Positions 43,038-60,073 of a DNA stretch of 64,000 nt are shown piece after piece. Both the position numbers and the translations under genes were made by a program. Under the pieces are notes generated by a model that had not been told where the DNA came from, searched no databases, and was given only the letters and a program-made list of their open reading frames with translations. Source of the stretch: an uncultured Dehalococcoidia bacterium (lineage in GTDB: Bacteria; Chloroflexota; Dehalococcoidia; Lucifugimonadales; CATQGZ01); the NCBI GenBank assembly GCA_964570875.1, contig CAZMZE010000003.1, forward strand, positions 11,975-75,974. Direction: 5' to 3'. Position 1 is the stretch's first letter. Each line of letters begins with the position of its first letter.

Positions 43038-43054
43038 AAAATCACCTCTAAATT

Positions 43055-43083
43055 AAAAAAACCCCAGACCGCGAAGGTTGGGG
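43055..43083 (-). terminator. GC-rich hairpin plus U7 in the rplA-rplJ spacer (terminator or L10-leader attenuator)
   Basis: The minus strand reads CCCCAACC-TTCGC-GGTCTGGGG followed by TTTTTTT. It ends 17 nt upstream of the rplJ start codon. Confidence 0.5.
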
Positions 43084-43173
43084 CTGACTATCTACCTTAG
43101 TCACTCACACTACCTCGGCAGGCTTCAATTTAATCCATTACACAGGAACCTACTGTCTGCGGCTACATCTATA

Positions 43174-43887
43174 TCATTCTACCTTAAGTTCTACGGTACT
43201 TGCAATATTCATTGAAACACTTGGACCCATTGTTGAAGTAAGATAGGCTGACTTGATAAAATCTCCTTTGATTCCATTGGGCTTTGCCCTAATAATGTTA
43301 TCAATCAGTGCCGTAAGATTTTCTAACAGCTGTATCTCCTCAAAGCTAGCTTTCCCTATTGTTACGTGTATCAGAGCTGTGCGATCCAGCCTAAATTCTA
43401 CTCTACCTTTTTTGGCTTCTTCAATCGCATTTGACAAGGCATCTGGTTGAACAACTGTACCTGCTCTAGGGTTAGGCATCAATCCTTTGCGACCAAGAAT
43501 AGGTCCCAATTTACCTACCTTACCCATCATATCTGGAGTGGCTATAGTCACATCGAAGTCGGTCCATCCTCCCTGAATTTTTGTTATAAGCTCATCTCCA
43601 CCTACAAATTCAGCACCAGCTTTTTCCGCCACTGAAATACCTTCACCTTGAGTTAAAACTAAAACACGAGGCTCTTTACCAATGCCATGAGGAAGAACCG
43701 TCACTCCTCTGACCATCTGATCCGATTGTTTTGGATCAGCCCCAGTTCTTAAGTGAAGCTCGACAGTTTCATCAAATTTCGCTGTTGCAGTTCGCTTTGC
43801 CAAAGCCACTGCTTCTGAAGGCTCATACTGCCTATCCTCATCCAATTCAGCTACAGAACTCACATACCTTTTTCCACGATTAGTCAT
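43174..43887 (-). CDS. rplA: 50S ribosomal protein L1
   Basis: 237 aa. Typical L1 sequence (FDETVELHLRTGADPKQSDQMVRG). Confidence 0.97.
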   Translation of the reverse strand: MTNRGKRYVSSVAELDEDRQYEPSEAVALAKRTATAKFDETVELHLRTGADPKQSDQMVRGVTVLPHGIGKEPRVLVLTQGEGISVAEKAGAEFVGGDELITKIQGGWTDFDVTIATPDMMGKVGKLGPILGRKGLMPNPRAGTVVQPDALSNAIEEAKKGRVEFRLDRTALIHVTIGKASFEEIQLLENLTALIDNIIRAKPNGIKGDFIKSAYLTSTMGPSVSMNIASTVELKVE

Positions 43888-43906
43888 ATTATTTACCTTT
43901 AGATAT

Positions 43907-44329
43907 CTACTCTACAACAATACCCATACTCCGAGCTGTGCCCTCTACTATCCTCATGGCCCCCTCCACATCAGCAGCATTCAAGTCTTGGAGCTTCGTT
44001 TCAGCAATTTTGCGGACTGCATCTGATGTTACAGTGCCAACCTTTTCAGCCCTCGGGCTACCACTTCCTTTATCAATTCCCGCAGCTTTACGCAAAAGGT
44101 CAGATGCTGGCGGGCTCTTGATTATAAACGAAAAAGAACGATCCTCGAAAATAGTTAGTTCAGCCGGTACAATTGTCCCTGTTTGTGAAGACGTTCGTTC
44201 ATTATATTCTTTTACAAAAGACATAATATTGACGCCATATTGCCCCAAAGCTGGACCCACAGGCCATGCAGGAGTCGCTTTACCTGCCTCTATCTGAAGC
44301 TTAAGGGTAGCCATTACCTTCTTTGCCAT
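43907..44329 (-). CDS. rplK: 50S ribosomal protein L11
   Basis: 140 aa. [29 protein letters not shown] is the L11 N-terminal signature. Confidence 0.97.
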
Positions 44330-44344
44330 TTTTAACCTTCCCGC

Positions 44345-44899
44345 CTAAACATTCTCCACCTGAAGAAAATCCAATTCTACAGGAGTTTCTCTGCCGAAAA
44401 ACGAAACCAACACTTTCAATTTGGAACGGTCTGCATAAACTTCATCTACAAATCCCATGAAATCAACAAACGGGCCATCAATTATCCTTATATTTTGACC
44501 TCTAGTATACCCAACCCTGACTTTTGGCTGATCAGATGCAATGTTGGCCAAAATAGTGTCCACTTCATGCTGTTCTAATGGTACGGGTTTGGGTCGAGAA
44601 TCCGCATCACCCTCTGAAGAAACGAAGGCGGTGACACCAGGGGTATTTCTCACTAGATACCAAGTCTCATCATCCATAACCATTTGGACGAGTATGTAAC
44701 CAGGGAACACTTTACGCGCAGTCGAAGTCCTACGGCCCCCTTTAATCTCCACCTGCTCTTCAGTAGGTATGACCACTTGGAGGACTTTGTCTTGGGCGTC
44801 CATGGTAGCTACGCGCTGGTCAAGGTTATTCTTAACTCTTTCTTCATGACCAGAATACGCATGAATTATGTACCAACGTGCTTCTGTCTCAGTACTCAT
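44345..44899 (-). CDS. nusG: transcription termination/antitermination factor NusG
   Basis: 184 aa with an NGN domain (WYIIHAYSGHEERV) and a KOW motif (IRIIDGPFVDFMGFVDEV). Confidence 0.96.
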   Translation of the reverse strand: MSTETEARWYIIHAYSGHEERVKNNLDQRVATMDAQDKVLQVVIPTEEQVEIKGGRRTSTARKVFPGYILVQMVMDDETWYLVRNTPGVTAFVSSEGDADSRPKPVPLEQHEVDTILANIASDQPKVRVGYTRGQNIRIIDGPFVDFMGFVDEVYADRSKLKVLVSFFGRETPVELDFLQVENV

Positions 44900-44916
44900 T
44901 TAAATCTATTTCTCTT

Positions 44917-45150
44917 CTAGCCCAGTATTTGACCCAAAATCTTGGCAAACAAAATATCTATTACACCCAAGAACGCACCTATTACAGCCGAGACGGCTAT
45001 AACCATAATCGTGAGCCTAATCGTTTCATCTCTTGTGGGCCAAGTCACCCTGCGTAATTCAGATACAGTCTCCGCTACCATACGAAAACTGAATCCCCGC
45101 CCACCGCTATCCGGACCGACTCGCCTAGGAACGCCTTGACTACTCGACAT
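44917..45150 (-). CDS. secE: preprotein translocase subunit SecE
   Basis: 77 aa. ELRRVTWPTRDE followed by a single TM helix. Position between rpmG and nusG. Confidence 0.85.
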   Translation of the reverse strand: MSSSQGVPRRVGPDSGGRGFSFRMVAETVSELRRVTWPTRDETIRLTIMVIAVSAVIGAFLGVIDILFAKILGQILG

Positions 45151-45156
45151 TAAGCC

Positions 45157-45324
45157 CTACCTAACCTCTCGATGTAGAGTATGGGAATCACACCTTGGAC
45201 AATATTTCTTCAGCTCCAGTCGCTGCGGATCATTACGACGACTCTTATTAGTATTATAAGTGCGTTCTTTGCAATCTTGGCAGGACATTGTTGCCAATAT
45301 TCTGTTTTCGCCTCTTCTAGCCAT
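45157..45324 (-). CDS. rpmG: 50S ribosomal protein L33 (zinc-ribbon C+ form)
   Basis: Below the ORF-track size cut-off. My translation is [55 protein letters not shown], with CxxC...CxxC present. Position between tuf and secE. Confidence 0.9.
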
Positions 45325-45331
45325 GCTTACC

Positions 45332-46531
45332 CTACGTCAGAACTTTCGTTATTACACCCGAACCCACGGTCCGACCACCTTCTCTGACGGCAAAACGCAA
45401 CTGGTCTTCCATGGCCACTGGCATAATCAATTTGATCTTCATTTCTATATTGTCTCCAGGCATTACCATCTCTACTCCATCTGGGAGTTCGATTTCTCCG
45501 GTAACATCCGTCGTCCTGATATAAAACTGCGGTTTGTATCCATTGAAGAATGGCGTGTGCCTTCCTCCTTCATCTTTACTCAACACATATACCTGTGCAT
45601 TGGCCTCTGTATGGGGAGTGATGCTACCTGGTTCAGATAACACCTGACCACGCTCAATCCCTTCTCTGTCTATTCCCCTCAGCAGAAGCCCGACGGCATC
45701 GCCAGGCTCTCCTTCATCGAGCGTCTTATGGAACATTTCCACACCAGTGACGGTAGTCTTAGAAGTATCCTTAATTCCTACAATCTCTATCTCTTGACCA
45801 ACATTTACCATGCCTCTTTCAACACGACCAGTTACGACCGTACCTCTACCCTTAATGCCGAAAACGTCCTCAACTGGCATCAAGAAAGGTTGATCCTTAG
45901 GCCGATCTGGTATCGGTATATAAGAATCCACAGCATCCATAAGTTCCCATATACCTTTTGACCATTCGCCGTCTCGAGATGTGTCCTCAGCTTCTAATGC
46001 ATTTAAGGCACTAACTCTTACTATGGGGATATCGTCTCCTGGGAAATCGTACTCTGAGAGGAGTTCTCGCAATTCTAACTCAACAAGCTCCAAAAGTTCC
46101 TCATCGTCCATAGCATCAACCTTGTTGAGTGCAATGACCAATTTTGGAACTTCTACCTGCCTTGCAAGCAAAATATGTTCTCTTGTCTGCGGCATTGGGC
46201 CATCTGGAGCACTCACTACCAAAATAGCACCATCCATTTGGGCAGCACCCGTGATCATGTTTTTAATGTAATCAGCATGACCAGGACAATCCACATGCGC
46301 ATAATGACGGCCGTCAGTCTCATACTCTATATGGTTAATGGCTATCGTCACACCACGAGCTTTTTCTTCAGGAGCATTATCTATACTATCGAAGGGCCTG
46401 TAATCTGCCATACCGTTCTCAGAGAGAACCCTTGTAATCGCCGAAGTCAAAGTTGTTTTGCCATGATCGACGTGTCCAATAGTGCCGACATTTACATGTG
46501 GCTTAGTTCTCTCAAATTTTTGTTTTGCCAT
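45332..46531 (-). CDS. tuf: elongation factor Tu
   Basis: [18 protein letters not shown] and NKVD motifs, full length. The ATG at 46531 is preceded by AAGGAGAGG; the track start is one TTG codon upstream. Confidence 0.98.
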
Positions 46532-46553
46532 CAACCTCTCCTTAAATTTACTT

Positions 46554-46629
46554 TGGAGCCCACAAGCAGACTCGAACTGCTGACCTCGTTCTTACCAAGA
46601 ACGTGCTCTGCCTACTGAGCTAAGTGGGC
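46554..46629 (-). tRNA. tRNA-Thr (anticodon GGU), CCA encoded
   Basis: The minus strand reads GCCCACTTAGCTCAGTAGGCAGAGCACGTTCTTGGTAAGAACGAGGTCAGCAGTTCGAGTCTGCTTGTGGGCTCCA. Cloverleaf folded by hand; anticodon loop TTGGTAA. Confidence 0.9.
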
Positions 46630-46680
46630 CCGCATCCGCTCGCCAGTTCCATTTATTAATAGTTTTTCTTCCACATATTG

Positions 46681-46768
46681 TGGTGGAGGGGGCAGGATTC
46701 GAACCTGCGTAGCCCTTCCGGGCGCCAGATTTACAGTCTGGTGGTATTAACCACTCACCCACCCCTCC
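46681..46768 (-). tRNA. tRNA-Tyr (anticodon GUA), long variable arm, CCA encoded
   Basis: The minus strand reads GGAGGGGTGGGTGAGTGG...CCAGACTGTAAATCTGG...GGTTCGAATCCTGCCCCCTCCACCA. Anticodon loop CTGTAAA. Confidence 0.92.
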
Positions 46769-46875
46769 TGACAATAACGCGAGTGATTTTAACACAGACC
46801 GACTACCTATCCAATCTATTTTTACTGCTTAAACAACTCCATATATTGGCACAGAAACTGTCAGCCAGTCAGATA

Positions 46876-46948
46876 AGCCCCAGAGGGGACTCGAACCCAC
46901 TAACCTGTCGATTACAAATCGACTGCGCTACCGTTGCGCCACTGGGGC
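46876..46948 (-). tRNA. tRNA-Thr (anticodon UGU), no encoded CCA
   Basis: The minus strand reads GCCCCAGTGGCGCAACGGTAGCGCAGTCGATTTGTAATCGACAGGTTAGTGGGTTCGAGTCCCCTCTGGGGCT. Anticodon loop TTTGTAA. One U-C mismatch in the T stem. Confidence 0.85.
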
Positions 46949-47015
46949 ACTTGTCCAAACTAATCACTGACGACTGAGAAACTCCACTAATTCCACAAAA
47001 TATGGTCAATCCAAG

Positions 47016-47056
47016 CACAAAAACAGGCTAGCAGTCCTAAGACTATATGCTAGCCC
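47016..47056 (-). terminator. intrinsic terminator downstream of larC
   Basis: An 8-bp stem (GGCTAGCA / TGCTAGCC, 47026-47033 and 47048-47055) is followed on the minus strand by TGTTTTTGT, 63 nt after the larC stop. Confidence 0.45.
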
Positions 47057-47118
47057 ATCGTCCATAACATGATACCCAAGGAAGTATCGTTGGGTCAAGC
47101 TTCATTCAGACAGTTTGT

Positions 47119-48312
47119 TTACGATTCTATCAAACTCTCCGGAATAGCTCTATTGACAATTTGATAAACCTCTTTTAAAGGCATCCCTGTTTCGATAGCT
47201 ATTTGACGACATGATTCATACTCAGGGATCACATCAATATTGCGGCCATCCAGTTTTTTCAACTTTACATCCACATCTCCTAGGGGAGTACCTATACTAA
47301 TAATTTCTCTTCCAGCCTCATACCTCGTCAAAGGCCTGACTCGAACTCCGAAAGTAGATGATTCACGAATAATTAAGTCTACCGCATCACGTTCTATACT
47401 GGACGACACGATGGTACTTATCATTGTGCCAGGACGATTCTTCTTCATCTGAATTGGTGAGAACCAAACATCAGTGACACCTAATTTAAATAGCTTCTGT
47501 TGGAGGTAGCCCAAATTTTCTGCACTCATATCATCAACATTGGTTTCTATCAAAGTTGTATTGTTTGAGTAAGCAATATCAGGTTCTTCTCCTATCCATA
47601 ATCCAAGAACATTGGGGAAATCAGGTGAATCTTTGCTTCCAAGCCCATAACCTATTTTTTCCAATACGAGATTTGGCTGTCTGAATTCAGACAAAGTTGT
47701 AAGAATAGCCGCTCCAGTTGGTGTAACCATCTCTCCAACGTGAAAAGTATTCCCTGGAGGAGGGACTAAACAAGCACCAGATTTAGCTATCAAATTTGCT
47801 ACGGCTGGGACTGGAGTTGGGAGTGAACCATGATCGCTTTGGATGACACCAGAACCTGAAGGTAGCGGAGAACAATAGAGCCTATCTATTCCTAGCATTT
47901 CTATTGCAATAACACTACCAACCACATCGATCATAGTGTCCATGGTTCCAAGCTCATGAAGAGTAACTAGGTTGACGCTGGTACGATGAACTTCCGCTTC
48001 AGATTCTGCAAGTCGGTTAAATATATCAAGCGCTTTTGATGATATCGATGTGTCAATTGAGGAGGCTGAAATAATTGACTCAAAATCTTGCCAATTATAT
48101 TTCTGGTCATCACAATCATGTAATTCCACAGAAACAGATATTCCTTTTACCCCGCCACGACTCTCGCATCTCGCATTTAAATTGAATTTACTGACTCCGA
48201 ATTCTTCAATTTTTCGAGATAATTCGGCAACTGAAACACCTGCATCTACCACTGCTCCCAAAATCATGTCTCCACTTGCCCCACCAATGCAGTTGAAATA
48301 AGCGCTTTTCAA
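47119..48312 (-). CDS. larC: nickel-pincer cofactor biosynthesis protein LarC (nickel insertase, DUF111 family)
   Basis: 397 aa, single ORF. N-terminal YFNCIGGASGDMILGAVVDAG is the LarC signature. TTG start 4 nt after GGAGGTGA. Confidence 0.88.
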   Translation of the reverse strand: MKSAYFNCIGGASGDMILGAVVDAGVSVAELSRKIEEFGVSKFNLNARCESRGGVKGISVSVELHDCDDQKYNWQDFESIISASSIDTSISSKALDIFNRLAESEAEVHRTSVNLVTLHELGTMDTMIDVVGSVIAIEMLGIDRLYCSPLPSGSGVIQSDHGSLPTPVPAVANLIAKSGACLVPPPGNTFHVGEMVTPTGAAILTTLSEFRQPNLVLEKIGYGLGSKDSPDFPNVLGLWIGEEPDIAYSNNTTLIETNVDDMSAENLGYLQQKLFKLGVTDVWFSPIQMKKNRPGTMISTIVSSSIERDAVDLIIRESSTFGVRVRPLTRYEAGREIISIGTPLGDVDVKLKKLDGRNIDVIPEYESCRQIAIETGMPLKEVYQIVNRAIPESLIES

Positions 48313-52767: not shown

Positions 52768-52889
52768 CCCCCTGGCAGTGACCTATTTTCCCACTCCGTT
52801 ACCAGAGCAGTATCGTGAGCGCAGAGGTGCTTAACTACCGTGTTCGGGATGGGAACGGGTGGGTCCACCTCGCAATAACCACCAAGGGA
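52768..52889 (-). rRNA. rrf: 5S ribosomal RNA, not linked to a 23S gene
   Basis: The minus strand reads ...CCTTGGTGGTTATTGCGAGGTGGACCCACCCGTTCCCATCCCGAACACGGTAGTTAAGCACCTCTGCGCTCACGATACTGCTCTGGTAACGGAGTGGGAAAATAGGTCACTGCCAGGG.... The universal CCGAACACGG-AGTTAAGC core is present. Helix I pairs CCTTGGTGG with CTGCCAGGG. Ends are approximate, within 3 nt. Confidence 0.9.
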
Positions 52890-52905
52890 CAATTTTCAGA
52901 TACTA

Positions 52906-52934
52906 ATTATGCAGTGTCTATCTTCAACTGTCAA
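52906..52934 (-). promoter_or_regulatory. sigma70-type promoter TTGACA-N17-CATAAT directly upstream of the 5S rRNA
   Basis: On the minus strand TTGACA is at 52934-52929 and CATAAT at 52911-52906. The predicted transcript start is about 10 nt before the mature 5S 5' end. Confidence 0.5.
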
Positions 52935-53199
52935 CGATCTCAGTCACAAAATAAGACTCTATTCAATAATTGTGCGCTCTATAATTTTTTTGATATTACC
53001 ACCGAATTTGTGTGTCCGAACAATAAGAAAGATCAATTATACAAGAAGGTATGGGATACATATGGATTAAAGTGCCCCATCAATCAGCACCATACAAATT
53101 ACAGTTGTTGTTTATTGTAGAATGTGGCCTTTCCTTCCGAAATAACCAAATATAAGCAACATTCCTATACAATGTACGAAACCACTCGCGGGGTAATAT

Positions 53200-55251
53200 A
53201 TGAACTACCATCTTGGGGTCGACGTAGGCGGTACCTTTACGGACCTAGTACTGTATGACGTAGATACAAATCACATTGAATTGACAAAAACTCCATCCAC
53301 TCCTTCTAACCAAGCTGAAGGCGTGACCACTGGAATTGAAATGCTACTAAAAAGAGTTGCGGTCCCTGCTAGCAATATCAGTTTCCTTATTCACGGAACC
53401 ACAGTGGCAACCAACACCCTTTTGGAACGTAAGGGAGCAAGCACCGCTCTAATTGTTACCGAGGGATTCAGAGACGTGCTTGAAGTCGGACGGCAGGATA
53501 GGCCTGATTTGTACGATTGGCGCATAAAGAAAACCACTCCATTGGTGCCACGGCACTTAAGGTTCGAGATCAAAGAGAGAATTTTATATACAGGAGAAAT
53601 ACACAAAGAGTTGGACCTCCAGGCTCTCCATAGATTGGTCGAAACAATCAGAGTCTCAGGGGCAGAATCAGTGGCTGTCTGCCTTATGCACTCATATGCT
53701 AATCCAAAGCATGAAATCGAGATCGGTCAAACTCTGCAGGAACATTTACCAAATCTGCCAGTATCTCTGTCTCACCAAATCCTCCCCGAATTTAAAGAGT
53801 TCGAGAGAATGAGTACGACAGTTATAAACTCTTATGTATCCCCCGTCATCGGAACATATGTTAACCAACTGACAAATAACATTGTTGAGGCTGGTATAAG
53901 TTCTAATCTATATATCATGCAATCAAATGGCGGAACTATGCTGGCAACTTCGGCGGTGGAACGGCCCGTAAATACAATTTTGTCTGGTCCTGCTGCTGGA
54001 GTCATTGGTAGCGTAGCCATATCAAAACAAGCCTCACAAATGAATGCTATTTGTGTCGACATGGGCGGTACTAGCTTCGATGTTACTCTTGCCCATAATG
54101 GCGAGGTGCGCCAAACCAGAGAAAGTGAAATAGAGAGACTGCCCATTAAAGTACCTATGGTAGACATCCACACACTAGGGGCTGGTGGAGGAAGCATAGC
54201 ATGGATCGATCCTGGTGGAGCCTTGCGCGTTGGACCAAAAAGTTCGGGAGCCGATCCTGGCCCAGCTTGTTACGGCAAGGGAGGAAAGGAACCGACAGTT
54301 ACGGACGCCAATCTGGTGCTTGGCAGGCTTAATCCTCGCCGTTTCTTGGGTGGCAGAATGTCATTAGATACAGACCTGGCGCGGAGCGTTATAGATGAAC
54401 GCCTTGCCAAGCCCCTAGGCCTCAGTATTGAGGCATGCGCAGAAGGAATAATTCGAGTAGTTAACGCAAGTATGATAAAAGGTATCCGGGTTGTATCAGT
54501 AGCTAAGGGATTTGATCCTAGGGATTTTTGCCTTGTCGCATTTGGCGGAGCTGGTCCAGTGCACTCTTCCGAACTTGCCTCTGAGCTTGATATCCCAAAA
54601 GTTTTGGTACCCATTGCCCCAGGTGTAACTTCAGCCTTGGGCTTACTTATGGCAGACCTGAGGCATGATTTCGTTCAAACGGTGCTAAAATCCGGAGATT
54701 CACTAGACCACAATGAAATCAATTCTAAGTTTGCAACTATGGAAGATGAAGCCGTGCAACGCATGCAACAGGATGGTGTCCCGGCAGAACAAGTAACACT
54801 TCTCAGGATGGCAGATATCCGATATGCGGGGCAAGGATATGAGCTCGAAATACCAATTAATTCTGGCAAGCTGACTAAGCAATCAATGAAAAACACAGAA
54901 GATCAATTTCATATGGCACACGAACGCATGTATGGTTATTCTACGCCAGACCGACCAATTGAGGCAGTAAATTTACGTATTACTGCTCTAACAGAACTTC
55001 CTCGACCTAAATTTGTGCCACAAAAATTGGTTCAGCGGAAAAACCCAGAAGTAGCACGTGATAGTCAAAGGAATGTTTATTTCAACGGACGGTTTGTAGA
55101 AACTTTCATTTATTACAGACCGTTACTCCAACCTGGTGACTGTATAAACGGCCCTGCTGTCATCGAACAAGAGGATTCCACAACACTGGTATGGGAAGAT
55201 CAAATTGCGAGAGTAGATGCTTTTTCGAATCTGTTGGTGGAGAGAGTTTAA
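53200..55251 (+). CDS. hyuA: hydantoinase/oxoprolinase family protein, A (HyuA-like) subunit
   Basis: 683 aa with an N-terminal GVDVGGTFTDLV and a second ASKHA-fold ATPase motif VDMGGTSFDV. Confidence 0.9.
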   Translation: MNYHLGVDVGGTFTDLVLYDVDTNHIELTKTPSTPSNQAEGVTTGIEMLLKRVAVPASNISFLIHGTTVATNTLLERKGASTALIVTEGFRDVLEVGRQDRPDLYDWRIKKTTPLVPRHLRFEIKERILYTGEIHKELDLQALHRLVETIRVSGAESVAVCLMHSYANPKHEIEIGQTLQEHLPNLPVSLSHQILPEFKEFERMSTTVINSYVSPVIGTYVNQLTNNIVEAGISSNLYIMQSNGGTMLATSAVERPVNTILSGPAAGVIGSVAISKQASQMNAICVDMGGTSFDVTLAHNGEVRQTRESEIERLPIKVPMVDIHTLGAGGGSIAWIDPGGALRVGPKSSGADPGPACYGKGGKEPTVTDANLVLGRLNPRRFLGGRMSLDTDLARSVIDERLAKPLGLSIEACAEGIIRVVNASMIKGIRVVSVAKGFDPRDFCLVAFGGAGPVHSSELASELDIPKVLVPIAPGVTSALGLLMADLRHDFVQTVLKSGDSLDHNEINSKFATMEDEAVQRMQQDGVPAEQVTLLRMADIRYAGQGYELEIPINSGKLTKQSMKNTEDQFHMAHERMYGYSTPDRPIEAVNLRITALTELPRPKFVPQKLVQRKNPEVARDSQRNVYFNGRFVETFIYYRPLLQPGDCINGPAVIEQEDSTTLVWEDQIARVDAFSNLLVERV

Positions 55252-57023
55252 TGAAATCAGAAACCGACTTAAAAATGGATAACAATAAAATTGATCCGAT
55301 TACGCTTGAAGTGATGAGGAATGCATTCTATTCAATATCTGAGGAAATGAATGCTGCACTAATAAGGGCAAGCTATTCCACAAACATAAAAGATCGTCGA
55401 GATGCTTCATGTGCTATATACACTGCAACTGGTGATATCGTGGTTGTAGCTCAAAGTGAAATGGGTACGCCTCTGCATCTTGGTACCATGCATTCAGCTG
55501 TACAAACAGCTTTGGATGCATTTCCATTTGGCGAACTGGAGCCTGGAGACGCAGTGGCAATGAACACTCCGTACCCAGGTGGACCAGGTCACCTAAATGA
55601 TCTGTGCCTGATATCCCCAATTTTTCACGAAGATAGACTCGTAGCACTCACTGCCAACCAGGCGCATCATGTTGATATGGGCGGCTTCGCTCCTGGCTCC
55701 ATGCCTTTTGGAGTAACAGAAATTTACCAAGAAGGAATGCAAATACCACCTGTACGACTTTTCAGAAAAGGAAATCTTGACAGAGACTTATGGAACCTCA
55801 TCTCTCAAAATGTAAGAACTCCTGTAGAGGTGCGAGGTGATTTATTTGCTCAGCTGGCTGCTAACAGCGTTGGGGGGAGAAACATAGTTGGGTTAATGAA
55901 GAGGTACGGTACTAGAACCGTTCAGGACTACCTAGAGGAAATGCTCAATTATTCAGAAAGAAGAATGCGAGCCGCATTGCAGATCATTCCAAAGGGCAGA
56001 TATGAAGCATCAGATGTAATAGAAGGAGATGGCATCGTCGACCAAGACTATTCGATCAGGGTAAAAATCGACGCGAACGGAGAATCCATTAAATGCGACT
56101 TTTCTGATACAGATCCATCCACCCTCGGTCCATTGAATTGTCGTTGGCCTTCAGTTGCTGCTTGCGTATACTATGTCCTCAAAGCTGTACTTGATCCTGA
56201 ATTGCCCCCAAACGCCGGACTTTATAGACCAATAGAAATAATTGTCAAAGAAGGCACAGTTTTATCGGCCAAATATCCAGTCGCTGTTTGCAACGCAAAT
56301 ATCATCACCACCCAACGAATCGTTGATGTACTGATCTCTGCGCTCTCACAGGCTGTACCTGAACGTGTGCTTGCAGCATCTTCAGGAACTATGAACCTGC
56401 TCAACATAGGTGGCATAGATCCGCGGACCGGAATCTATTACAACTATGTTGAAACCTATGCTGGTGGCCAAGGAGCCATGAAAATACAAGATGGCATGGA
56501 TGCAGTTCAGAATCATATGACAAACACTCGCAATGCACCAGTGGAATCCATAGAACAGGCCTATCCTCTACTTGTGGAAGCTTACTGCCTAGTAACCGAT
56601 TCTGAGGGAGCAGGTGAACATCGAGGTGGAGTGGGCTTACGGCGATCTTTCCGGGTGATGGGTGATGAAATTCGAGTTACTTTAAGTTCTGATCGAGCAC
56701 GCGTTGCTCCGTGGGGACTTTTTGGCGGAGGAAGTGCAAGCACGTCAAAATGCGAAGTCATAGGACTTGACAACACCAATCGTAGACTTCCATCCAAGGT
56801 CACCACAAGTGTGCAACATGGGTCCATCCTAGAGACTACCACTCCCGGTGGCGGAGGCTGGGGAAATCCCAGAAAACGTGATCCTGAACTGGTTCTGGAA
56901 GATGTTGTTGCCGGGTTGGTTAGCGTAGACAGGGCTAGAGAAATTTATTCAGTGGCAATAGATCTCAATGAAATGATTGTCAACATCCCAGAAACTGCTA
57001 CGCTTAGAAATCAAATCGAGTGA
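55251..57023 (+). CDS. hyuB: hydantoinase/oxoprolinase family protein, B (HyuB-like) subunit
   Basis: DPITLEVMRNAFYSISEEM N-terminus typical of HyuB. The ATG at 55251 overlaps the hyuA TAA by 1 nt; the track start at 55191 adds 20 aa. Confidence 0.9.
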   Translation: MKSETDLKMDNNKIDPITLEVMRNAFYSISEEMNAALIRASYSTNIKDRRDASCAIYTATGDIVVVAQSEMGTPLHLGTMHSAVQTALDAFPFGELEPGDAVAMNTPYPGGPGHLNDLCLISPIFHEDRLVALTANQAHHVDMGGFAPGSMPFGVTEIYQEGMQIPPVRLFRKGNLDRDLWNLISQNVRTPVEVRGDLFAQLAANSVGGRNIVGLMKRYGTRTVQDYLEEMLNYSERRMRAALQIIPKGRYEASDVIEGDGIVDQDYSIRVKIDANGESIKCDFSDTDPSTLGPLNCRWPSVAACVYYVLKAVLDPELPPNAGLYRPIEIIVKEGTVLSAKYPVAVCNANIITTQRIVDVLISALSQAVPERVLAASSGTMNLLNIGGIDPRTGIYYNYVETYAGGQGAMKIQDGMDAVQNHMTNTRNAPVESIEQAYPLLVEAYCLVTDSEGAGEHRGGVGLRRSFRVMGDEIRVTLSSDRARVAPWGLFGGGSASTSKCEVIGLDNTNRRLPSKVTTSVQHGSILETTTPGGGGWGNPRKRDPELVLEDVVAGLVSVDRAREIYSVAIDLNEMIVNIPETATLRNQIE

Positions 57024-57200
57024 ATATATTCAATATGTGAAGTGCAAAGAAAATGCTGTTGTGTGGATAAAACTCTAGCGGGATGGTCGCTTGTTTCCAA
57101 GGATGGTTCAGGGTCTTCGCAATAAATGGTCAGTTTATATTTGTTGGACTCAATAAATCCACCGAGAATTCTGGCGCTATTCAGAAAGTAGTCTTAGATA

Positions 57201-58373
57201 ATGAACAAAAATGCTGATGCTGTGATAGTAGGAGGCGGAATACTAGGAGCCAGTACCCTCTACTATCTGGCAAAGATGGGGTTACGCAATGCAATAATGC
57301 TAGAAAAAGGGGATCTAGCTTGTGGGTCATCAGGCGACTCGGCTGCTATGGTGCGACAGCATTATTCTAACGAAGTAAGCATTAGACTAGTCAAAGAAAG
57401 TCTGCGGTTTTTCCAAAATTTTGAGGACGAATTCAACGAGCAAGGCGTTTTTAAGCAAACTGGATGGATGTTTTTGTGTCCACCTGATGCCAAAGACAGC
57501 TTTGATCTCAATATGGATCGATTAATTAATTTAGGTGTGCGTACCAGAGAGATCTCACTGAACGACGCCAAGGAACTAATCCCTAGCCTCAACACAGACG
57601 GCATAGGCCCCATCGCCTTTGAACCAGATTCTGGTTATGCTGATCCGAAACGGACCATTCAAGCCTTAGTTAATAGAGCTGAAGACATGGGAGCAGCTGC
57701 TCATACTCAAACAACCGCCACCGGACTGATACTTAACAAAGGTAAAGTGTGTGGTATTTCAACGTCTAGTGGAACTATATCAACTCCAATAGTGGTCAAT
57801 ACAGCAGGTCCGTGGGCGTACCAGGTAGGACTTTGGGCAGGACTAGAATTGCCACTAACTATCTCGCGAGAACAAGACATAGTTATTGAACCACCTAAAG
57901 ATGCAACTACTTTGGACCTTGTAGTGTCCAACATGGTGGACCGTACTTATTTTCGGCCTATTGGAAACCGATCTATTTTGGCAGGTGTTGGACACCCTAA
58001 GGAAAACGAGCCCGTTGATCCAAACAACTATAACCGTGAAGCCAACATGGATTTCATCTCAGATATAATGAATCGCATTGAATATAGATTCCCCAATTTG
58101 CGTGGATCCAAAGTGACTTCTAGTTGGGCCGGCCTATACACAATAACTCCTGACTGGAACACAATGGTTGGTCCAGCACCTGAAGTAGAAGGATTATTCC
58201 TCGGAGTAGGAGGCAGCGGGCACTCCTTCAAGCTGGGTCCAGCTATTGGAATGTGTTTGGCTGATCTAATAGTTAAAGGATCCTCTAGCCAGATCGACAT
58301 CTCGCCGTTGAGCCCGGATAGATTCAGCAAAGGAACCCCTCTAAGATCGACGTATGGAGGAAATCGCGGATAA
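57201..58373 (+). CDS. FAD-dependent oxidoreductase (DAO family, sarcosine-oxidase-beta/D-amino-acid-dehydrogenase-like)
   Basis: 390 aa with the N-terminal DAVIVGGGILGASTLYYLAK...LEKG dinucleotide fold and a C-terminal GGSGHSFKLGPAIG. Confidence 0.85.
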   Translation: MNKNADAVIVGGGILGASTLYYLAKMGLRNAIMLEKGDLACGSSGDSAAMVRQHYSNEVSIRLVKESLRFFQNFEDEFNEQGVFKQTGWMFLCPPDAKDSFDLNMDRLINLGVRTREISLNDAKELIPSLNTDGIGPIAFEPDSGYADPKRTIQALVNRAEDMGAAAHTQTTATGLILNKGKVCGISTSSGTISTPIVVNTAGPWAYQVGLWAGLELPLTISREQDIVIEPPKDATTLDLVVSNMVDRTYFRPIGNRSILAGVGHPKENEPVDPNNYNREANMDFISDIMNRIEYRFPNLRGSKVTSSWAGLYTITPDWNTMVGPAPEVEGLFLGVGGSGHSFKLGPAIGMCLADLIVKGSSSQIDISPLSPDRFSKGTPLRSTYGGNRG

Positions 58374-58402
58374 GTCATTAAAGATAAAAGGAGTTGATCA
58401 AT

Positions 58403-60073
58403 ATGCCAAGAATGACGGGTAAACATGCGGTCATGCAAATGCTCAGGGCTGAAGGTGTCGAATATATATTTGGTAATCCGGGTACCACAGAAACCCCTCT
58501 AATGGACGCCCTTGAAGATTATCCTGAAATAAAATACATGTTGACAGTCCAAGAAGGTGTCGCAATGGGTATGGCAGATGCGTACAGCCGCGCTCTAGGC
58601 CAACCTTCTTTCGTAAATCTCCATATTGAAACTGGACTCGCAAACGGTATCAGCCTACTCCAGAACGCGTATGACGGCGGTTCCCCAATTGTGCTAACAG
58701 CTTGTAACAAAGACATACGTGAACTTGCCCATGGACGTACTGATCTTCGTGAGATGGCCCGACAATTCACAAAATGGAGTGTGGAAGTAAGTCACCCGGA
58801 TGCTATTCCTGTAGCAATGAGGAAAGCCTTTTATGAAGCCAAGACTCCTCCAACTGGACCAACATTTATTTCGTTTACAGCCAATGCTTTGGACGACGAA
58901 GCAGACATTGAAATACTACCTTCCTCTAGATCATTCAGCAGTGCCAGACCCGACAGTACTGCAATTGAATTAGCTGTTGATATACTATCCACTGCATCCA
59001 ATCCAATCATTTTAGTAGGTGACAGCGTCGGAGAATCCGGAGCACTTGGGGAGGTGATCGAGCTTTCTGAAAAGCTTGGATCTAAAGTCTACTCAACCAT
59101 GTTTTCAGGAGTAAATTTCCCTACCAGTCATCCGCACTACATGGGACCCATCCGACTGGGATATCGCGGGACAAGAGATATTTTAGAGACAGCTGACGTT
59201 ATAGTTATGGCTGGTCGCATCGCTAGTAACTACTACATGTTCTCAGATCCTCCATTGAGATATTTCAGTGGAAAGAGCAAGCTTATTCACATCCACTGTG
59301 ATTCATCCAACGTTGGCCAAACCGAACCCACGGATGTTGGAATAGTCGCGGATCCTAAGGCAGCGATCAGTGAGATAGTTCAAGGATTAGGCATCAATAT
59401 GCACAAAGATGCTGTGACAGCATCCGCGGTAAGAAGCCAGTTGACAAGGTCAGAGAAGGAAGCAGCCTATTTAAAAGATACTGAGCGAACAAAACGCCTT
59501 TGGAAAAACGTTCCGATGAGTCCCGAAAGGATGATGGCTGAACTCTCCAAAAGTTTGCCGGAAAATGTGATCATTGCAAATGACTCTGTTACCAGTGGAG
59601 GAGCCTTGCATCACTCTGTTCAATTTGACAAAGCAGGCAGTCTATATGGAGGCCGTGGTGGAGCATTAGGATGGGGTATGGGAGGAACTTTGGGGATTAA
59701 ACTTGCCAATCCAGACAGCCCGGTCGTAGGTGTAATAGGGGACGGTAGTGCCATGATGACTATTCAGGCTTTGTGGACAGCGGCAGCCGAAAATATACCC
59801 GTCGTATATGTGATTTGCAACAACGGTGTATACCGTGTGCTTAAGGTCAACATGAATATGTACAAAGAACTTGTTCTCAAAGGTGAGGCGCCTCCAAGCA
59901 AATATATCGGTATGGACTTCTCGCAGCCGTTCGATATGGCAGGCATAGCCAAATCTATGGGAGTTTATAGTCGTCGCATAGAAGATCCGAACCAAATCGC
60001 CCCTGCACTTGAAGAAGCGCTTAATCTAGATTCTCCTGCATTACTTGATGTAATAATAGATCCAGCTTTATAG
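58403..60073 (+). CDS. thiamine-diphosphate-dependent enzyme (acetolactate synthase / benzoylformate decarboxylase superfamily)
   Basis: N-terminal VEYIFGNPGTTETPLMDAL, the ThDP motif GDGSAMMTIQALWTAAAENIPVVYVICNNGVY. The ATG at 58403 lies 9 nt after AAAGGAG. Confidence 0.88.
   Translation: MPRMTGKHAVMQMLRAEGVEYIFGNPGTTETPLMDALEDYPEIKYMLTVQEGVAMGMADAYSRALGQPSFVNLHIETGLANGISLLQNAYDGGSPIVLTACNKDIRELAHGRTDLREMARQFTKWSVEVSHPDAIPVAMRKAFYEAKTPPTGPTFISFTANALDDEADIEILPSSRSFSSARPDSTAIELAVDILSTASNPIILVGDSVGESGALGEVIELSEKLGSKVYSTMFSGVNFPTSHPHYMGPIRLGYRGTRDILETADVIVMAGRIASNYYMFSDPPLRYFSGKSKLIHIHCDSSNVGQTEPTDVGIVADPKAAISEIVQGLGINMHKDAVTASAVRSQLTRSEKEAAYLKDTERTKRLWKNVPMSPERMMAELSKSLPENVIIANDSVTSGGALHHSVQFDKAGSLYGGRGGALGWGMGGTLGIKLANPDSPVVGVIGDGSAMMTIQALWTAAAENIPVVYVICNNGVYRVLKVNMNMYKELVLKGEAPPSKYIGMDFSQPFDMAGIAKSMGVYSRRIEDPNQIAPALEEALNLDSPALLDVIIDPAL

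What the first reader, a model, noticed from the sequence alone, without database searches (positions are those of the whole stretch)
53200..60073. hyuA-hyuB / FAD amine-oxidase-like / ThDP-enzyme block: candidate catabolic pathway for a cyclic amide
Seen: four large co-directional genes. hyuA and hyuB overlap by 1 nt (TAATG). After a 177-nt gap, a DAO-family flavoprotein is followed 29 nt later by a ThDP enzyme with an intact GDG-x24-NN motif. Established: HyuA/HyuB-type enzymes are ATP-dependent ring-opening amidohydrolases or carboxylases (N-methylhydantoinase, 5-oxoprolinase, caprolactamase, acetone/acetophenone carboxylase). DAO-family enzymes oxidise the C-N bond of amino or N-alkyl-amino acids. 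ThDP enzymes of this superfamily decarboxylate or carboligate 2-oxoacids.

Inference, as a chemically coherent sequence: lactam or hydantoin ring opening gives an amino or N-substituted amino acid. Flavin oxidation gives a 2-oxoacid, which then undergoes ThDP-dependent decarboxylation or ligation. It resembles, but does not match, the creatinine/N-methylhydantoin route: no carbamoyl-sarcosine amidase is present, and there is an extra ThDP enzyme. No regulator or transporter is adjacent. The substrate is unknown.
Basis: inference. Interest (0 to 1): 0.55.

Follow-up and report, generated by a model that had tools for sequence, protein, structure and literature searches.

The report
Ring-opening amidase module beside unrelated ThDP gene
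Three of the four genes (an ATP-driven ring-opening amidase pair and a flavin amine oxidase) form a catabolic unit conserved in marine Chloroflexota, while the fourth, thiamine-dependent enzyme is a separately conserved gene that only sits next to them in this lineage.

Summary
The anatomy is exactly as described. There are four intact co-directional genes: HyuA, HyuB, a DAO-family flavoprotein and a benzoylformate-decarboxylase-like ThDP enzyme. The gaps are a 1-nt overlap, 177 nt and 29 nt.

The proposed four-gene pathway is only partly supported.
- **HyuAB–DAO link holds.** Among loci anchored on DAO orthologues with at least 6 kb of upstream sequence, 11 of 13 carry HyuAB upstream on the same strand. 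These come from many Dehalococcoidia/SAR202-type contigs.
- **ThDP link does not hold.** None of 84 DAO-anchored loci has a ThDP gene. None of 80 genomes anchored on ThDP orthologues (51–75% identity) has HyuAB beside it.
- **The four-gene layout is narrow.** It recurs only in one sister species (86–94% protein identity). The nearest outgroup already has ThDP next to rimM without the trio, so the trio most likely landed beside a resident ThDP gene.

HyuAB scores as a hydrolase, not a carboxylase. It falls below the caprolactamase family cut-offs. The ThDP enzyme is not ilvB and not a true BFD.

In relatives the trio is accompanied by varying hydrolases, racemase-family genes, an IlvE-type transaminase, GntR regulators and peptide-type ABC transporters. 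The substrate remains unknown. The closest precedent I found is the oxidase–HyuA–HyuB arrangement in Ti-plasmid opine regions. Interest is modest.

The parts
52887..53199 (+). Intergenic region upstream of hyuA, between the orphan 5S rRNA gene and hyuA. It is the presumed promoter region of the block.
   Evidence: Sequence read. No Rfam match at E<=1. Only weak consensus promoter matches, at chance level.
53200..55251 (+). hyuA: large ATP-binding (ASKHA) subunit of a hydantoinase/oxoprolinase-family ATP-dependent amidohydrolase, 683 aa.
   Evidence: Pfam PF05378, PF01968 and PF19278. NCBIfam best match is caprolactamase alpha at 634 bits, below the 1000 cut-off. PDB best match is N-methylhydantoinase 7hk5 at 531 bits, then CapA 468, acetophenone carboxylase 304 and acetone carboxylase 292. 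The motifs DVGGTFTD, DMGGTS and GADPGP are visible in the alignment.
55251..57023 (+). hyuB: metal-containing hydrolytic subunit, 590 aa. It overlaps hyuA by 1 nt.
   Evidence: Pfam PF02538, E 2e-188. PDB scores are 7hk5 288 bits, CapB 250, ApcD 147 and AcxA 65. D51, H114, D117 and H139 align with the CapB metal tetrad D41, H99, D102 and H124 (PMC8453981).
57024..57200 (+). hyuB-DAO spacer of 177 nt. It carries an insertion of about 117 nt relative to the 60-nt spacer of the sister species.
   Evidence: Alignment with L172. No Rfam match.
57201..58373 (+). DAO-family FAD flavoprotein, stand-alone and SoxB/PDH1-beta-like, 390 aa. It is the third member of the conserved trio.
   Evidence: Pfam PF01266, 2e-60. 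It is below every NCBIfam cut-off; MTOX scores 131 against 257 and SoxB 129 against 529. PDB best match is 1y56_B at 181 bits. Orthologues are linked to HyuAB in 11 of 13 informative loci.
58403..60073 (+). BFD-like ThDP enzyme, 556 aa. It is adjacent and probably co-transcribed here, but it is not part of the conserved module.
   Evidence: Pfam TPP_enzyme_N, M and C. NCBIfam BFD PRK07092 scores 339 bits, below the 493 cut-off, and ilvB scores 219, below 538. PDB BFD scores about 245 bits against 139 for the next family. Zero of 80 orthologue loci have HyuAB beside the gene.
59738..59824 (+). ThDP/Mg-binding motif GDG-x24-NN (G446-N474).
   Evidence: Invariant columns in alignment A1.

Best explanation
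The block is a composite of two independent units.

**The functional unit.** The unit is the three-gene module hyuA-hyuB-dao, widespread in marine Dehalococcoidia/SAR202-type Chloroflexota and relatives.
1. HyuA uses ATP to activate the amide (iminol) oxygen of a cyclic amide. (Inferred from the family.)
2. HyuB, through its conserved Asp-His-Asp-His metal site, hydrolyses the ring. The product is a linear amino acid, N-substituted amino acid or N-carbamoyl/N-acyl amino acid. (Inferred from the family.)
3. The DAO flavoprotein oxidises the C-N bond of that product to an imine. The imine hydrolyses to a 2-oxoacid plus ammonia or an amine. (Inferred from the family and from conserved linkage.) In relatives a variable extra hydrolase may act before this step.

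**Accessory genes in relatives.** The trio is joined by variable genes that fit this scheme:
- CN_hydrolase, an AtzE-like amidase or an M19 dipeptidase;
- racemase-superfamily genes (Asp/Glu/hydantoin racemase, Amdase/EutA-like);
- an IlvE-type class IV transaminase directly after DAO;
- RidA, GntR/FCD regulators and SBP_bac_5 ABC transporters.

None of these is present in this window, so here the module is in its minimal form.

**The ThDP gene.** It belongs to a separately conserved BFD-like family that was already next to rimM. The trio landed upstream of it in the ancestor of this species and its sister. It may be read through from the trio, but its participation in the pathway is unproven.

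**Substrate.** The substrate is unknown. Candidates are 5-substituted or N-methyl hydantoins, pyroglutamyl/opine-type lactams, amino-lactams and diketopiperazines.
For: **Family assignments.**

**HyuAB is a hydrolase, not a carboxylase.**
- HyuA bit scores: N-methylhydantoinase 531 > caprolactamase 468 >> acetophenone carboxylase 304 and acetone carboxylase 292.
- HyuB bit scores: 288 > 250 >> 147 and 65.
- ATP motifs and the metal tetrad are conserved.
- No third small subunit ORF is present.

**HyuAB-DAO linkage.**
- Individual contexts: L086 (Cupin-HyuA-HyuB-DAO), L087/L088 (HyuA-HyuB-CN_hydrolase-DAO-Amidase-SBP_bac_5), L089/L090 and L176 (HyuA-HyuB-M19-Asp_Glu_race-DAO).
- In the metagenome scan anchored on DAO, 11 of 13 loci with DAO at 48% identity or more and at least 6 kb upstream carry HyuB. 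Eight of these have HyuB at 67-82% identity. For DAO at 39-43% identity the count is 4 of 6 by HyuB (5 of 6 counting HyuA), and below 38% it is 2 of 9.
- Gaps between HyuB and DAO are as short as 22 nt (L093, L094).

**Accessory families.** Confirmed by Pfam and NCBIfam. None is found in the window.

**ThDP is independent.**
- 0 of 80 ThDP-anchored genome loci have HyuAB adjacent, and 1 of 80 has a 38%-identity DAO, on the opposite strand.
- 0 of 84 DAO-anchored loci hold any ThDP-superfamily gene.
- The trio (L086) and the ThDP orthologue (L171) lie on the same 2.5-Mb contig but about 120 kb apart.
- The outgroup L006 has ThDP-rimM-KH-SpoT without the trio.

**All four genes are functional.** The sister species keeps all four intact, with dN/dS 0.05-0.11.

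**Precedent.** Ti plasmids carry FAD oxidoreductase-HyuA-HyuB operons and nox genes beside HyuAB in opine catabolic regions.
Against: - No enzyme was assayed, and the substrate and the product of ring opening are unknown.
- The reverse linkage is only partial. Of three HyuB orthologues (70% identity) chosen without regard to DAO, two have no DAO within 9 kb.
- Some counted loci are close relatives of each other (L098/L099; L123/L127/L133; L145/L148/L153/L157), so the counts are not independent events.
- Insertion of the trio versus its loss is polarised by a single close outgroup (L006) plus the general lack of linkage elsewhere.
- The minimal window version lacks the second hydrolase seen in many relatives. 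So either the ring-opened product is oxidised directly, or needed genes lie elsewhere in the genome.
- The tight 29-nt DAO-ThDP spacing, kept in the sister species, is compatible with ThDP having been recruited.
Confidence: 0.6

Rival explanations
1. In this lineage the ThDP enzyme has been recruited as the fourth step. It decarboxylates or ligates the 2-oxoacid made by DAO, so the block is one operon encoding lactam to amino acid to 2-oxoacid to aldehyde or acyloin.
For: - The genes share a strand, with a 29-nt spacer holding a good RBS and no convincing terminator between DAO and ThDP.
- The arrangement and all four reading frames are kept in the sister species at dS about 0.65.
- In relatives the slot right after DAO is often held by an IlvE-type transaminase, another 2-oxoacid-handling enzyme.
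- The ThDP enzyme is BFD-like and keeps the cofactor Glu and His70 equivalents.
Against: - 0 of 80 ThDP orthologue loci and 0 of 84 DAO loci outside the genus show the linkage.
- The ThDP family is conserved by itself, with other neighbours such as CoxL-like/MoxR genes, DinB and Fmt.
- ThDP-rimM synteny predates the arrival of the trio.
- Juxtaposition between housekeeping genes looks like a rearrangement rather than operon assembly.
Confidence: 0.2
2. HyuAB is a housekeeping HyuAB-type 5-oxoprolinase that recycles pyroglutamate to glutamate. The neighbouring DAO and ThDP genes are unrelated to it.
For: - Some sources name close homologues '5-oxoprolinase'.
- The block sits among housekeeping genes.
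- Two HyuAB orthologue loci lack DAO.
- A paralogous HyuAB type is interleaved with gamma-glutamyltranspeptidase genes in L098/L099.
Against: - DAO orthologues are linked to HyuAB orthologues across many organisms with otherwise different neighbours.
- Glutamate needs no DAO-type oxidase.
- The accessory hydrolases, racemases, regulators and transporters in relatives indicate catabolism of an imported compound.
- The source names are automatic family-level labels. JGI calls the same family N-methylhydantoinase B.
Confidence: 0.1
3. HyuAB is an ATP-dependent carboxylase of the acetone or acetophenone carboxylase type rather than a hydrolase.
For: It belongs to the same superfamily, and the metal tetrad and ATP motifs are shared by both classes.
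Against: - Scores to the carboxylases are far lower than to the hydrolases: HyuB scores 65 bits against AcxA and 147 against ApcD, compared with 288 and 250 for the hydrolases.
- No gamma or epsilon subunit genes are present.
- The metal ligand is Asp, not the gating Glu of acetone carboxylase.
- Linkage to amine-processing enzymes does not fit ketone carboxylation.
Confidence: 0.03

Closest known systems
Ti-plasmid opine-lactam catabolic genes (FAD oxidoreductase-HyuA-HyuB operon of octopine-type plasmids; HyuAB beside nox/noc genes of nopaline-type plasmids; HyuAB of pTiEU6)
   Same: - A HyuA/HyuB pair is genetically coupled to a DAO-family flavoprotein, with ABC transporters and RidA nearby.
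- Window HyuA is 43% identical to the plasmid HyuA.
- The proposed logic is the same: open a lactam ring, then oxidatively cleave the secondary amine (PMC6733357).
- From memory, these are the agaE/agaF/agaG genes for agropinic and mannopinic acid. I could not verify that here.
   Different: - The DAO is only 26% identical to the plasmid oxidase and 20% identical to NoxB-like proteins.
- Gene order differs: oxidase first, or divergent.
- The host is a marine Chloroflexota chromosome with no transporter or regulator adjacent.
- Opines are not an expected marine substrate.
N-methylhydantoin amidohydrolase (EC 3.5.2.14) with sarcosine oxidase, the creatinine route
   Same: - The best solved-structure match for both subunits is a fused N-methylhydantoinase (7hk5/9h03).
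- HyuB shares its NTRN...E region rather than the caprolactamase Cys-Cys.
- The DAO is SoxB/MSOX-related.
- Some relatives add a CN_hydrolase or amidase, or DMGDH-like and BHMT-like genes.
   Different: - No creatinine deaminase and no N-carbamoylsarcosine amidase is in the window.
- The subunits are separate, not fused.
- The DAO is far below the SoxB, MSOX and MTOX family cut-offs.
- Similarity to N-methylhydantoinase is only moderately higher than to caprolactamase.
Caprolactamase CapAB / P. putida lactamase
   Same: - It is the best NCBIfam match for both subunits.
- It has the same two-subunit architecture, ATP motifs and metal tetrad.
   Different: - Scores are 634 and 312 bits against cut-offs of 1000.
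- The vicinal Cys410-Cys411 platform of CapB is absent.
- The caprolactam pathway continues with an omega-transaminase, not a DAO flavoprotein (PMC8453981).
Pseudomonas sp. NS671 hyuA-hyuB-hyuC-hyuE 5-substituted hydantoin utilisation (recalled from memory; HyuA Q01262 is listed in PMC8453981)
   Same: It combines an ATP-dependent HyuAB hydantoinase with a racemase-family gene and a carbamoyl- or acyl-amino-acid hydrolase. Relatives of the trio carry Asp_Glu_race and CN_hydrolase, amidase or M19 genes.
   Different: - The window itself has neither a racemase nor a carbamoylase.
- The NS671 cluster has no DAO oxidase.
- Sequence relatedness to NS671 HyuAB was not measured here.
Benzoylformate decarboxylase (MdlC)
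   Same: - It is the best family and structure match for the ThDP enzyme.
- The Glu47 and His70 equivalents (E51, H74) and GDG-x24-NN are conserved.
   Different: - The score is 339 bits, below the 493 cut-off.
- Ser26 is Thr and His281 is Tyr across the whole family.
- No mandelate-pathway genes are nearby.
- The family is conserved across Dehalococcoidia and Acidobacteriota with unrelated neighbours.

Membership tests
Hydantoinase/oxoprolinase-family ATP-dependent hydrolases (HyuA/HyuB) | HyuA domains Hydant_A_N, Hydantoinase_A and Hydant_A_C, plus HyuB domain Hydantoinase_B, above the Pfam gathering scores. | tested here: met
   201, 348 and 80 bits, and 627 bits, against cut-offs of 21-27.
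Hydantoinase/oxoprolinase-family ATP-dependent hydrolases (HyuA/HyuB) | ASKHA ATP-site motifs (DxGGTxTD, DxGGT, GxxPGP) in the large subunit. | tested here: met
   DVGGTFTD, DMGGTS and GADPGP are aligned with the same motifs of 7hk5 and CapA. The motifs are as defined in PMC8453981.
Hydantoinase/oxoprolinase-family ATP-dependent hydrolases (HyuA/HyuB) | Asp-His-Asp-His metal site in the small subunit. | tested here: met
   D51, H114, D117 and H139 align with CapB D41, H99, D102 and H124.
Acetone/acetophenone carboxylases | Additional gamma or epsilon subunits, and closest similarity to Acx/Apc subunits. | tested here: not met
   There are no extra small subunit ORFs. HyuB scores 65 bits to AcxA and 147 to ApcD, against 288 and 250 to the hydrolases. 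NCBIfam Apc models score far below their cut-offs.
Caprolactamase CapA/CapB (NCBIfam NF050156/NF050157 equivalogs) | Score at or above the curated cut-off (1000 bits each). | tested here: not met
   634 and 312 bits.
Caprolactamase CapA/CapB (NCBIfam NF050156/NF050157 equivalogs) | Vicinal Cys-Cys substrate platform in CapB. | tested here: not met
   CapB 'PLCCFGAL' aligns with 'NHMTNTRN' in the window protein. The feature is described in PMC8453981.
N-methylhydantoin amidohydrolase / creatinine route | Orthology to a characterised N-methylhydantoinase. | tested here: inconclusive
   It is the best PDB match (531 and 288 bits), but only moderately better than caprolactamase. There is no curated model and no phylogeny with other characterised members.
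N-methylhydantoin amidohydrolase / creatinine route | Companion creatinine deaminase and N-carbamoylsarcosine amidase. | tested here: not met
   Neither is adjacent. No homologue of the accessory hydrolases of relatives occurs anywhere in the 64-kb window. The rest of the genome was not available.
HyuAB-type 5-oxoprolinase | Orthology to a characterised 5-oxoprolinase (OPLAH or bacterial OplAB). | not testable with these tools
   No solved structure or curated model of this type is in the libraries searched. The source names are automatic.
Benzoylformate decarboxylase (NCBIfam PRK07092 equivalog) | Score at or above the cut-off of 493 bits. | tested here: not met
   338.7 bits.
Benzoylformate decarboxylase (NCBIfam PRK07092 equivalog) | Catalytic residues Ser26, His70 and His281, plus the cofactor Glu47 (residue roles recalled from memory). 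| tested here: not met
   E51 and H74 are conserved, but Ser26 is T28 and His281 is Y277, family-wide.
Anabolic acetolactate synthase large subunit (ilvB, TIGR00118) | Score at or above the cut-off of 538 bits, and an adjacent ilvN small subunit. | tested here: not met
   219.5 bits. No ilvN-like gene is adjacent.
Sulfoacetaldehyde acetyltransferase (Xsc) / glyoxylate carboligase | Score at or above the curated cut-offs. | tested here: not met
   Xsc scores 217-237 against 620-676. Gcl scores 191 against 791.
Sarcosine oxidase (SoxB, monomeric MSOX) / N-methyltryptophan oxidase / glycine oxidase ThiO | Score at or above the curated cut-offs. | tested here: not met
   MTOX scores 131 against 257, SoxB 129 against 529, soxA_mon 108 against 480 and ThiO 77 against 251. 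The protein is in the DAO superfamily only.
Conserved four-gene operon (hyuA-hyuB-dao-ThDP) | Co-conservation of all four genes in other genomes. | tested here: not met
   It occurs only in the same species and one sister species. It is absent from 80 ThDP-anchored and 84 DAO-anchored loci.
Conserved three-gene module (hyuA-hyuB-dao) | DAO orthologues found next to HyuAB orthologues in unrelated contexts. | tested here: met
   11 of 13 informative loci at DAO identity of 48% or more, plus the individual contexts. The reverse direction (HyuB to DAO) held in 1 of 3 loci.

The most novel reading that the evidence does not exclude
The hyuA-hyuB-dao trio may be the core of an uncharacterised ATP-driven pathway. 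Its variable add-ons are a hydrolase, a racemase, a transaminase and a transporter. By this pathway deep-ocean SAR202-type Chloroflexota would open chemically stable cyclic amides of marine dissolved organic nitrogen and funnel the released amino acids into central metabolism. Candidate substrates are hydantoins, amino-lactams, pyroglutamyl compounds and diketopiperazines, and the released amino acids may be D- or N-substituted. In this particular lineage the resident BFD-like ThDP enzyme would have been co-opted as a new terminal step.
Probability: 0.25. Interest if true: 0.6.

Novelty: new member of a known kind. Interest (0 to 1): 0.33.

Why it matters
Ordinary amidases do not readily open lactams and hydantoins, which is why cells spend ATP on them. 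SAR202-type Chloroflexota are thought to consume recalcitrant dissolved organic matter in the dark ocean.

A widely conserved HyuAB-plus-amine-oxidase module gives a concrete, testable candidate for how cyclic nitrogen compounds are mineralised there. It could also supply new ATP-dependent lactamases or hydantoinases for biocatalysis.

For annotation, the practical lesson is that the neat four-step chemistry is not backed by conservation. The ThDP gene should not be annotated as part of this pathway on adjacency alone.

Tried and rejected
- **RNA elements.** I searched Rfam for a riboswitch or leader in the block at E<=1 and found nothing. The gathering-threshold scan of the whole window found only 5S rRNA, two tRNAs and the L10 leader.
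- **Promoters and terminators.** The scan found 17 promoter-like sites against 15.4 expected, and 5 terminator-like sites against 6.1 expected. That is chance level, so it gives no evidence for or against an internal transcript boundary.
- **Closer annotated homologues on plasmids.**
  - DAO reached 34% identity at most, and the two best contexts (Cupriavidus, Natrononativus) were uninformative.
  - HyuB reached 44% at most.
- **Literature.**
  - No paper links SAR202 with hydantoinase genes in a relevant way.
  - I found no paper on the 7hk5/9h03 N-methylhydantoinase structures.
  - I could not verify my recollection of the agaE/F/G functions.
- **Accessory genes in the window.** I searched the window for every accessory gene seen in relatives: BCAT, M19, racemases, CN_hydrolase, amidase, cupin, SBP_bac_5, RidA, CoA-transferase, OCD and CocE. 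None is present.
- **D-amino-acid transaminase.** I considered this identity for the class IV gene after DAO. I rejected it because the gene passes the ilvE_I equivalog cut-off and matches the D-AAT models only partially.
- **Acetone/acetophenone carboxylase.** Rejected on scores and on the missing subunits.
- **ilvB, Xsc and Gcl identities for the ThDP enzyme.** Rejected on curated cut-offs.
- **Not pursued.** I did not run structure prediction or fold search, because sequence matches to solved structures were already strong and would not reveal the substrate.

Full report
**1. Observation**

The four ORFs are present exactly as described.
- hyuA is 53200-55251 and hyuB is 55251-57023. They overlap by one base (TAATG).
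- A 177-nt spacer follows, then the DAO gene at 57201-58373.
- A 29-nt spacer containing AAAGGAG follows, then the ThDP gene from ATG 58403 to 60073.

Pfam assigns them unambiguously.
- HyuA carries Hydant_A_N, Hydantoinase_A and Hydant_A_C.
- HyuB carries Hydantoinase_B (E 2e-188).
- The third gene is DAO, and the fourth carries TPP_enzyme_N, M and C.

The GDG-x24-NN motif is intact and invariant in the family.

The flanks are housekeeping genes on the opposite strand.
- Upstream lie an orphan 5S rRNA gene, S1, ClpC, LarC, tRNAs and EF-Tu.
- Downstream lie rimM, a KH protein, S16, S20 and SpoT.
- No regulator or transporter is adjacent.

Identical copies of the locus occur in several marine metagenome assemblies. 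The nearest named relative is a 'Chloroflexota bacterium' MAG.

**2. Family placement**

*HyuAB*
- The best curated models are caprolactamase alpha and beta, but both score well below their cut-offs (634 and 312 bits against 1000).
- Against solved structures, both subunits match a fused N-methylhydantoinase best, then caprolactamase. Acetophenone and acetone carboxylase score much lower.

| Subunit | N-methylhydantoinase (7hk5/9h03) | Caprolactamase (6yra) | Acetophenone carboxylase | Acetone carboxylase |
|---|---|---|---|---|
| HyuA (bits) | 531 | 468 | 304 | 292 |
| HyuB (bits) | 288 | 250 | 147 | 65 |

- The ATP-site motifs and the HyuB Asp-His-Asp-His metal site (D51, H114, D117, H139) are conserved.
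- These features were defined in the caprolactamase structure paper (PMC8453981). All family members share them, so they show an active enzyme but do not separate hydrolases from carboxylases.
- Three things do separate them: the score hierarchy, the absence of gamma or epsilon subunit genes, and Asp rather than the gating Glu of acetone carboxylase.
- The caprolactamase-specific vicinal Cys-Cys is absent. The region instead resembles the N-methylhydantoinase sequence.
- Verdict: a hydrolase-type HyuAB of unknown specificity.

*DAO*
- The DAO protein is below every curated cut-off, including MTOX, SoxB, MSOX and ThiO.
- Its best structural relative is 1y56_B (181 bits). From memory, that chain is the beta subunit of Pyrococcus L-proline dehydrogenase.

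*ThDP*
- The ThDP enzyme is clearly BFD-like. PRK07092 scores 339 bits and PDB BFD about 245 bits, against 139 or less for other families.
- It is nevertheless below the BFD cut-off of 493.
- It keeps the Glu47 and His70 equivalents but has Thr for Ser26 and Tyr for His281. Both changes are conserved family-wide.
- It is not ilvB, Xsc or Gcl.

**3. Co-conservation, anchored on the ThDP gene**

- An alignment of ThDP orthologues retrieved 80 loci from other species. They are mostly Dehalococcoidia/SAR202 with some Acidobacteriota, at 51-75% identity, and most have 10-kb flanks.
- A tblastn search with the window's HyuA, HyuB and DAO found no HyuAB next to any of them.
  - One locus (L077) has a 31-34% identical HyuAB about 8 kb away.
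  - One locus (L036) has a 38% identical DAO on the opposite strand.
- The family's commonest neighbours are a CoxL-like molybdoenzyme with a MoxR-type ATPase, DinB, Fmt and Tag. These are variable and unrelated to amide catabolism.

**4. Co-conservation, anchored on the DAO gene**

Three look-ups of DAO orthologues at 60-68% identity all showed HyuA-HyuB immediately upstream on the same strand, without ThDP.
- One locus reads Cupin_2-HyuA-HyuB-DAO.
- One reads Cupin_2-HyuA-HyuB-CN_hydrolase-DAO-Amidase-SBP_bac_5 with permeases.
- One reads HyuA-HyuB-Peptidase_M19-Asp_Glu_race-DAO, followed by a class IV transaminase.

Two of these contigs also hold a ThDP orthologue elsewhere. On the 2.5-Mb contig it lies about 120 kb from the trio.

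A metagenome scan with a DAO alignment gave 80 more loci. Among loci with at least 6 kb upstream of DAO, linkage to HyuB tracks DAO identity.

| DAO identity to window | Loci with HyuB | Note |
|---|---|---|
| 48% or more | 11 of 13 | 8 have HyuB at 67-82% identity |
| 39-43% | 4 of 6 | 5 of 6 counting HyuA |
| below 38% | 2 of 9 | |

- Several short contigs also show HyuB directly before DAO, with gaps as small as 22 nt.
- No ThDP-superfamily gene occurs in any of these loci, apart from one contig of the window's own species.
- The reverse test is weaker. I chose three HyuB orthologues (70% identity) because their contigs did not appear in the DAO list. One has M19-Asp_Glu_race-DAO downstream and two have no DAO.
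- Some loci are close relatives of one another, so the counts overstate the number of independent events.

**5. History of the juxtaposition**

- A sister species (GCA_036339275.1) has the same layout: 5S, hyuA, hyuB, DAO, ThDP, rimM.
  - Protein identities are 92, 92, 86 and 94%.
  - dN/dS is 0.05-0.11 at dS about 0.65.
  - So all four genes are functional and the layout is stable within this genus.
- The next closest ThDP orthologue (L006, 75% identity) is followed by the same rimM-KH-SpoT genes. It is preceded by a YaaC-like ORF, not by DAO or HyuAB.
- Together with the general lack of linkage, the most parsimonious history is that ThDP already sat beside rimM and the trio was inserted upstream of it.

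**6. What the trio probably does**

Accessory genes found with the trio in relatives were confirmed by Pfam and NCBIfam.
- CN_hydrolase. From memory, this superfamily includes the N-carbamoyl-D-amino-acid and N-carbamoylputrescine amidases.
- An AtzE-like amidase and Peptidase_M19.
- Asp/Glu/hydantoin racemase, and an Amdase/EutA-like relative.
- An IlvE-type branched-chain transaminase directly after DAO. It passes the TIGR01122 cut-off.
- RidA, GntR/FCD regulators and SBP_bac_5 ABC transporters.
- In some loci, DMGDH-like and homocysteine-S-methyltransferase genes.

A more distant group embeds HyuAB with a mu-crystallin homologue, and with genes I labelled by eye only as SoxA/SoxG-like and PurU.

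All of this fits an imported cyclic amide that is opened with ATP, sometimes further hydrolysed or racemised, and then oxidised at the C-N bond to a 2-oxoacid. None of the accessory genes is in the window, so this genome has the minimal version.

The steps themselves are inferred from family chemistry and linkage. Nothing was assayed, and the substrate is open.

**7. Comparison with what is known**

- The same gene logic exists on Ti plasmids.
  - An octopine-type plasmid carries FAD oxidoreductase-HyuA-HyuB flanked by ABC transporters and RidA.
  - Its HyuA is 43% identical and its oxidase 26% identical to the window proteins.
  - A nopaline-type plasmid has nox-like oxidase genes divergent from HyuAB next to nocPTQM.
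  - The pTiEU6 paper proposes that these HyuAB proteins open opine lactams (PMC6733357).
- The creatinine route (N-methylhydantoinase plus sarcosine oxidase) is the other close analogue. Its deaminase and carbamoylsarcosine amidase are missing here.
- I therefore file the trio as a new, uncharacterised member of a known kind of system: HyuAB-led cyclic-amide catabolism coupled to a DAO-family oxidase.
- I file the ThDP gene as a neighbour of unproven relevance.

**8. Verdict**

- The chemically tidy four-step pathway dissolves into a conserved three-gene module plus an independently conserved BFD-like gene.
- ThDP recruitment in this genus remains possible. I put it at about 0.2, because of the tight, stable spacing.
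- Interest is modest. The module is a reasonable target for enzymology of cyclic-nitrogen-compound turnover in SAR202-type bacteria, but nothing here is mechanistically unprecedented.

Noticed in passing
window 52770-52886 (- strand); promoter-like site 52934..52906: A full-length 5S rRNA gene (92 bits) stands alone with no 23S or 16S gene nearby. An 11-of-12 sigma-70-like match lies just upstream. The same orphan 5S sits before hyuA in the sister species (L172 1720-1836). Together these suggest an unlinked, independently transcribed 5S gene.
   Followed up: partly
window about 57040-57160: The hyuB-DAO spacer is 177 nt here but 60 nt in the sister species. The difference is an insertion of about 117 nt, and part of it looks like a local duplication of the ATTCAATATGT...AAAGAAAA segment. 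It has no Rfam match.
   Followed up: partly
loci L006-L085 (ThDP-anchored), e.g. L020, L031, L033, L039: The BFD-like ThDP family has T for Ser26 and Y for His281. It is conserved at 51-75% identity across Dehalococcoidia/SAR202 and some Acidobacteriota. In roughly 25 of 80 genomes it sits just downstream of a CoxL-like molybdoenzyme gene and a MoxR/CoxD-like ATPase gene. Its function is unknown.
   Followed up: partly
L121, L123, L127, L133: A distant version of the theme runs HyuB, OCD/mu-crystallin, HyuA, GntR, CocE/NonD-like hydrolase, MFS, DAO, SoxA-like, SoxG-like, DAO, RraA-like, PurU-like, aminotransferase, PALP enzyme. It looks like a larger cluster for demethylating and degrading an N-alkyl amino acid. 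Several of these labels were assigned by eye.
   Followed up: no
L098, L099: A paralogous HyuA and HyuB (36-40% identity) are separated by two ORFs that I labelled gamma-glutamyltranspeptidase by eye. An Amidohydro_3 gene and a DAO orthologue (56% identity) follow. This may link one HyuAB subtype to gamma-glutamyl or 5-oxoproline chemistry.
   Followed up: no
L001 4836-6849: In one metagenome assembly of the same species, hyuA is split into 633-aa and 50-aa ORFs. This is either a frameshift variant in the population or an assembly error. The other assemblies have the intact 683-aa gene.
   Followed up: no
window 43047-48312: An L10 leader, EF-Tu and two tRNA genes lie here, along with a LarC-type nickel-insertion protein gene (47119-48312). 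It is an ordinary translation-gene neighbourhood, and LarC is the only non-housekeeping item.
   Followed up: no
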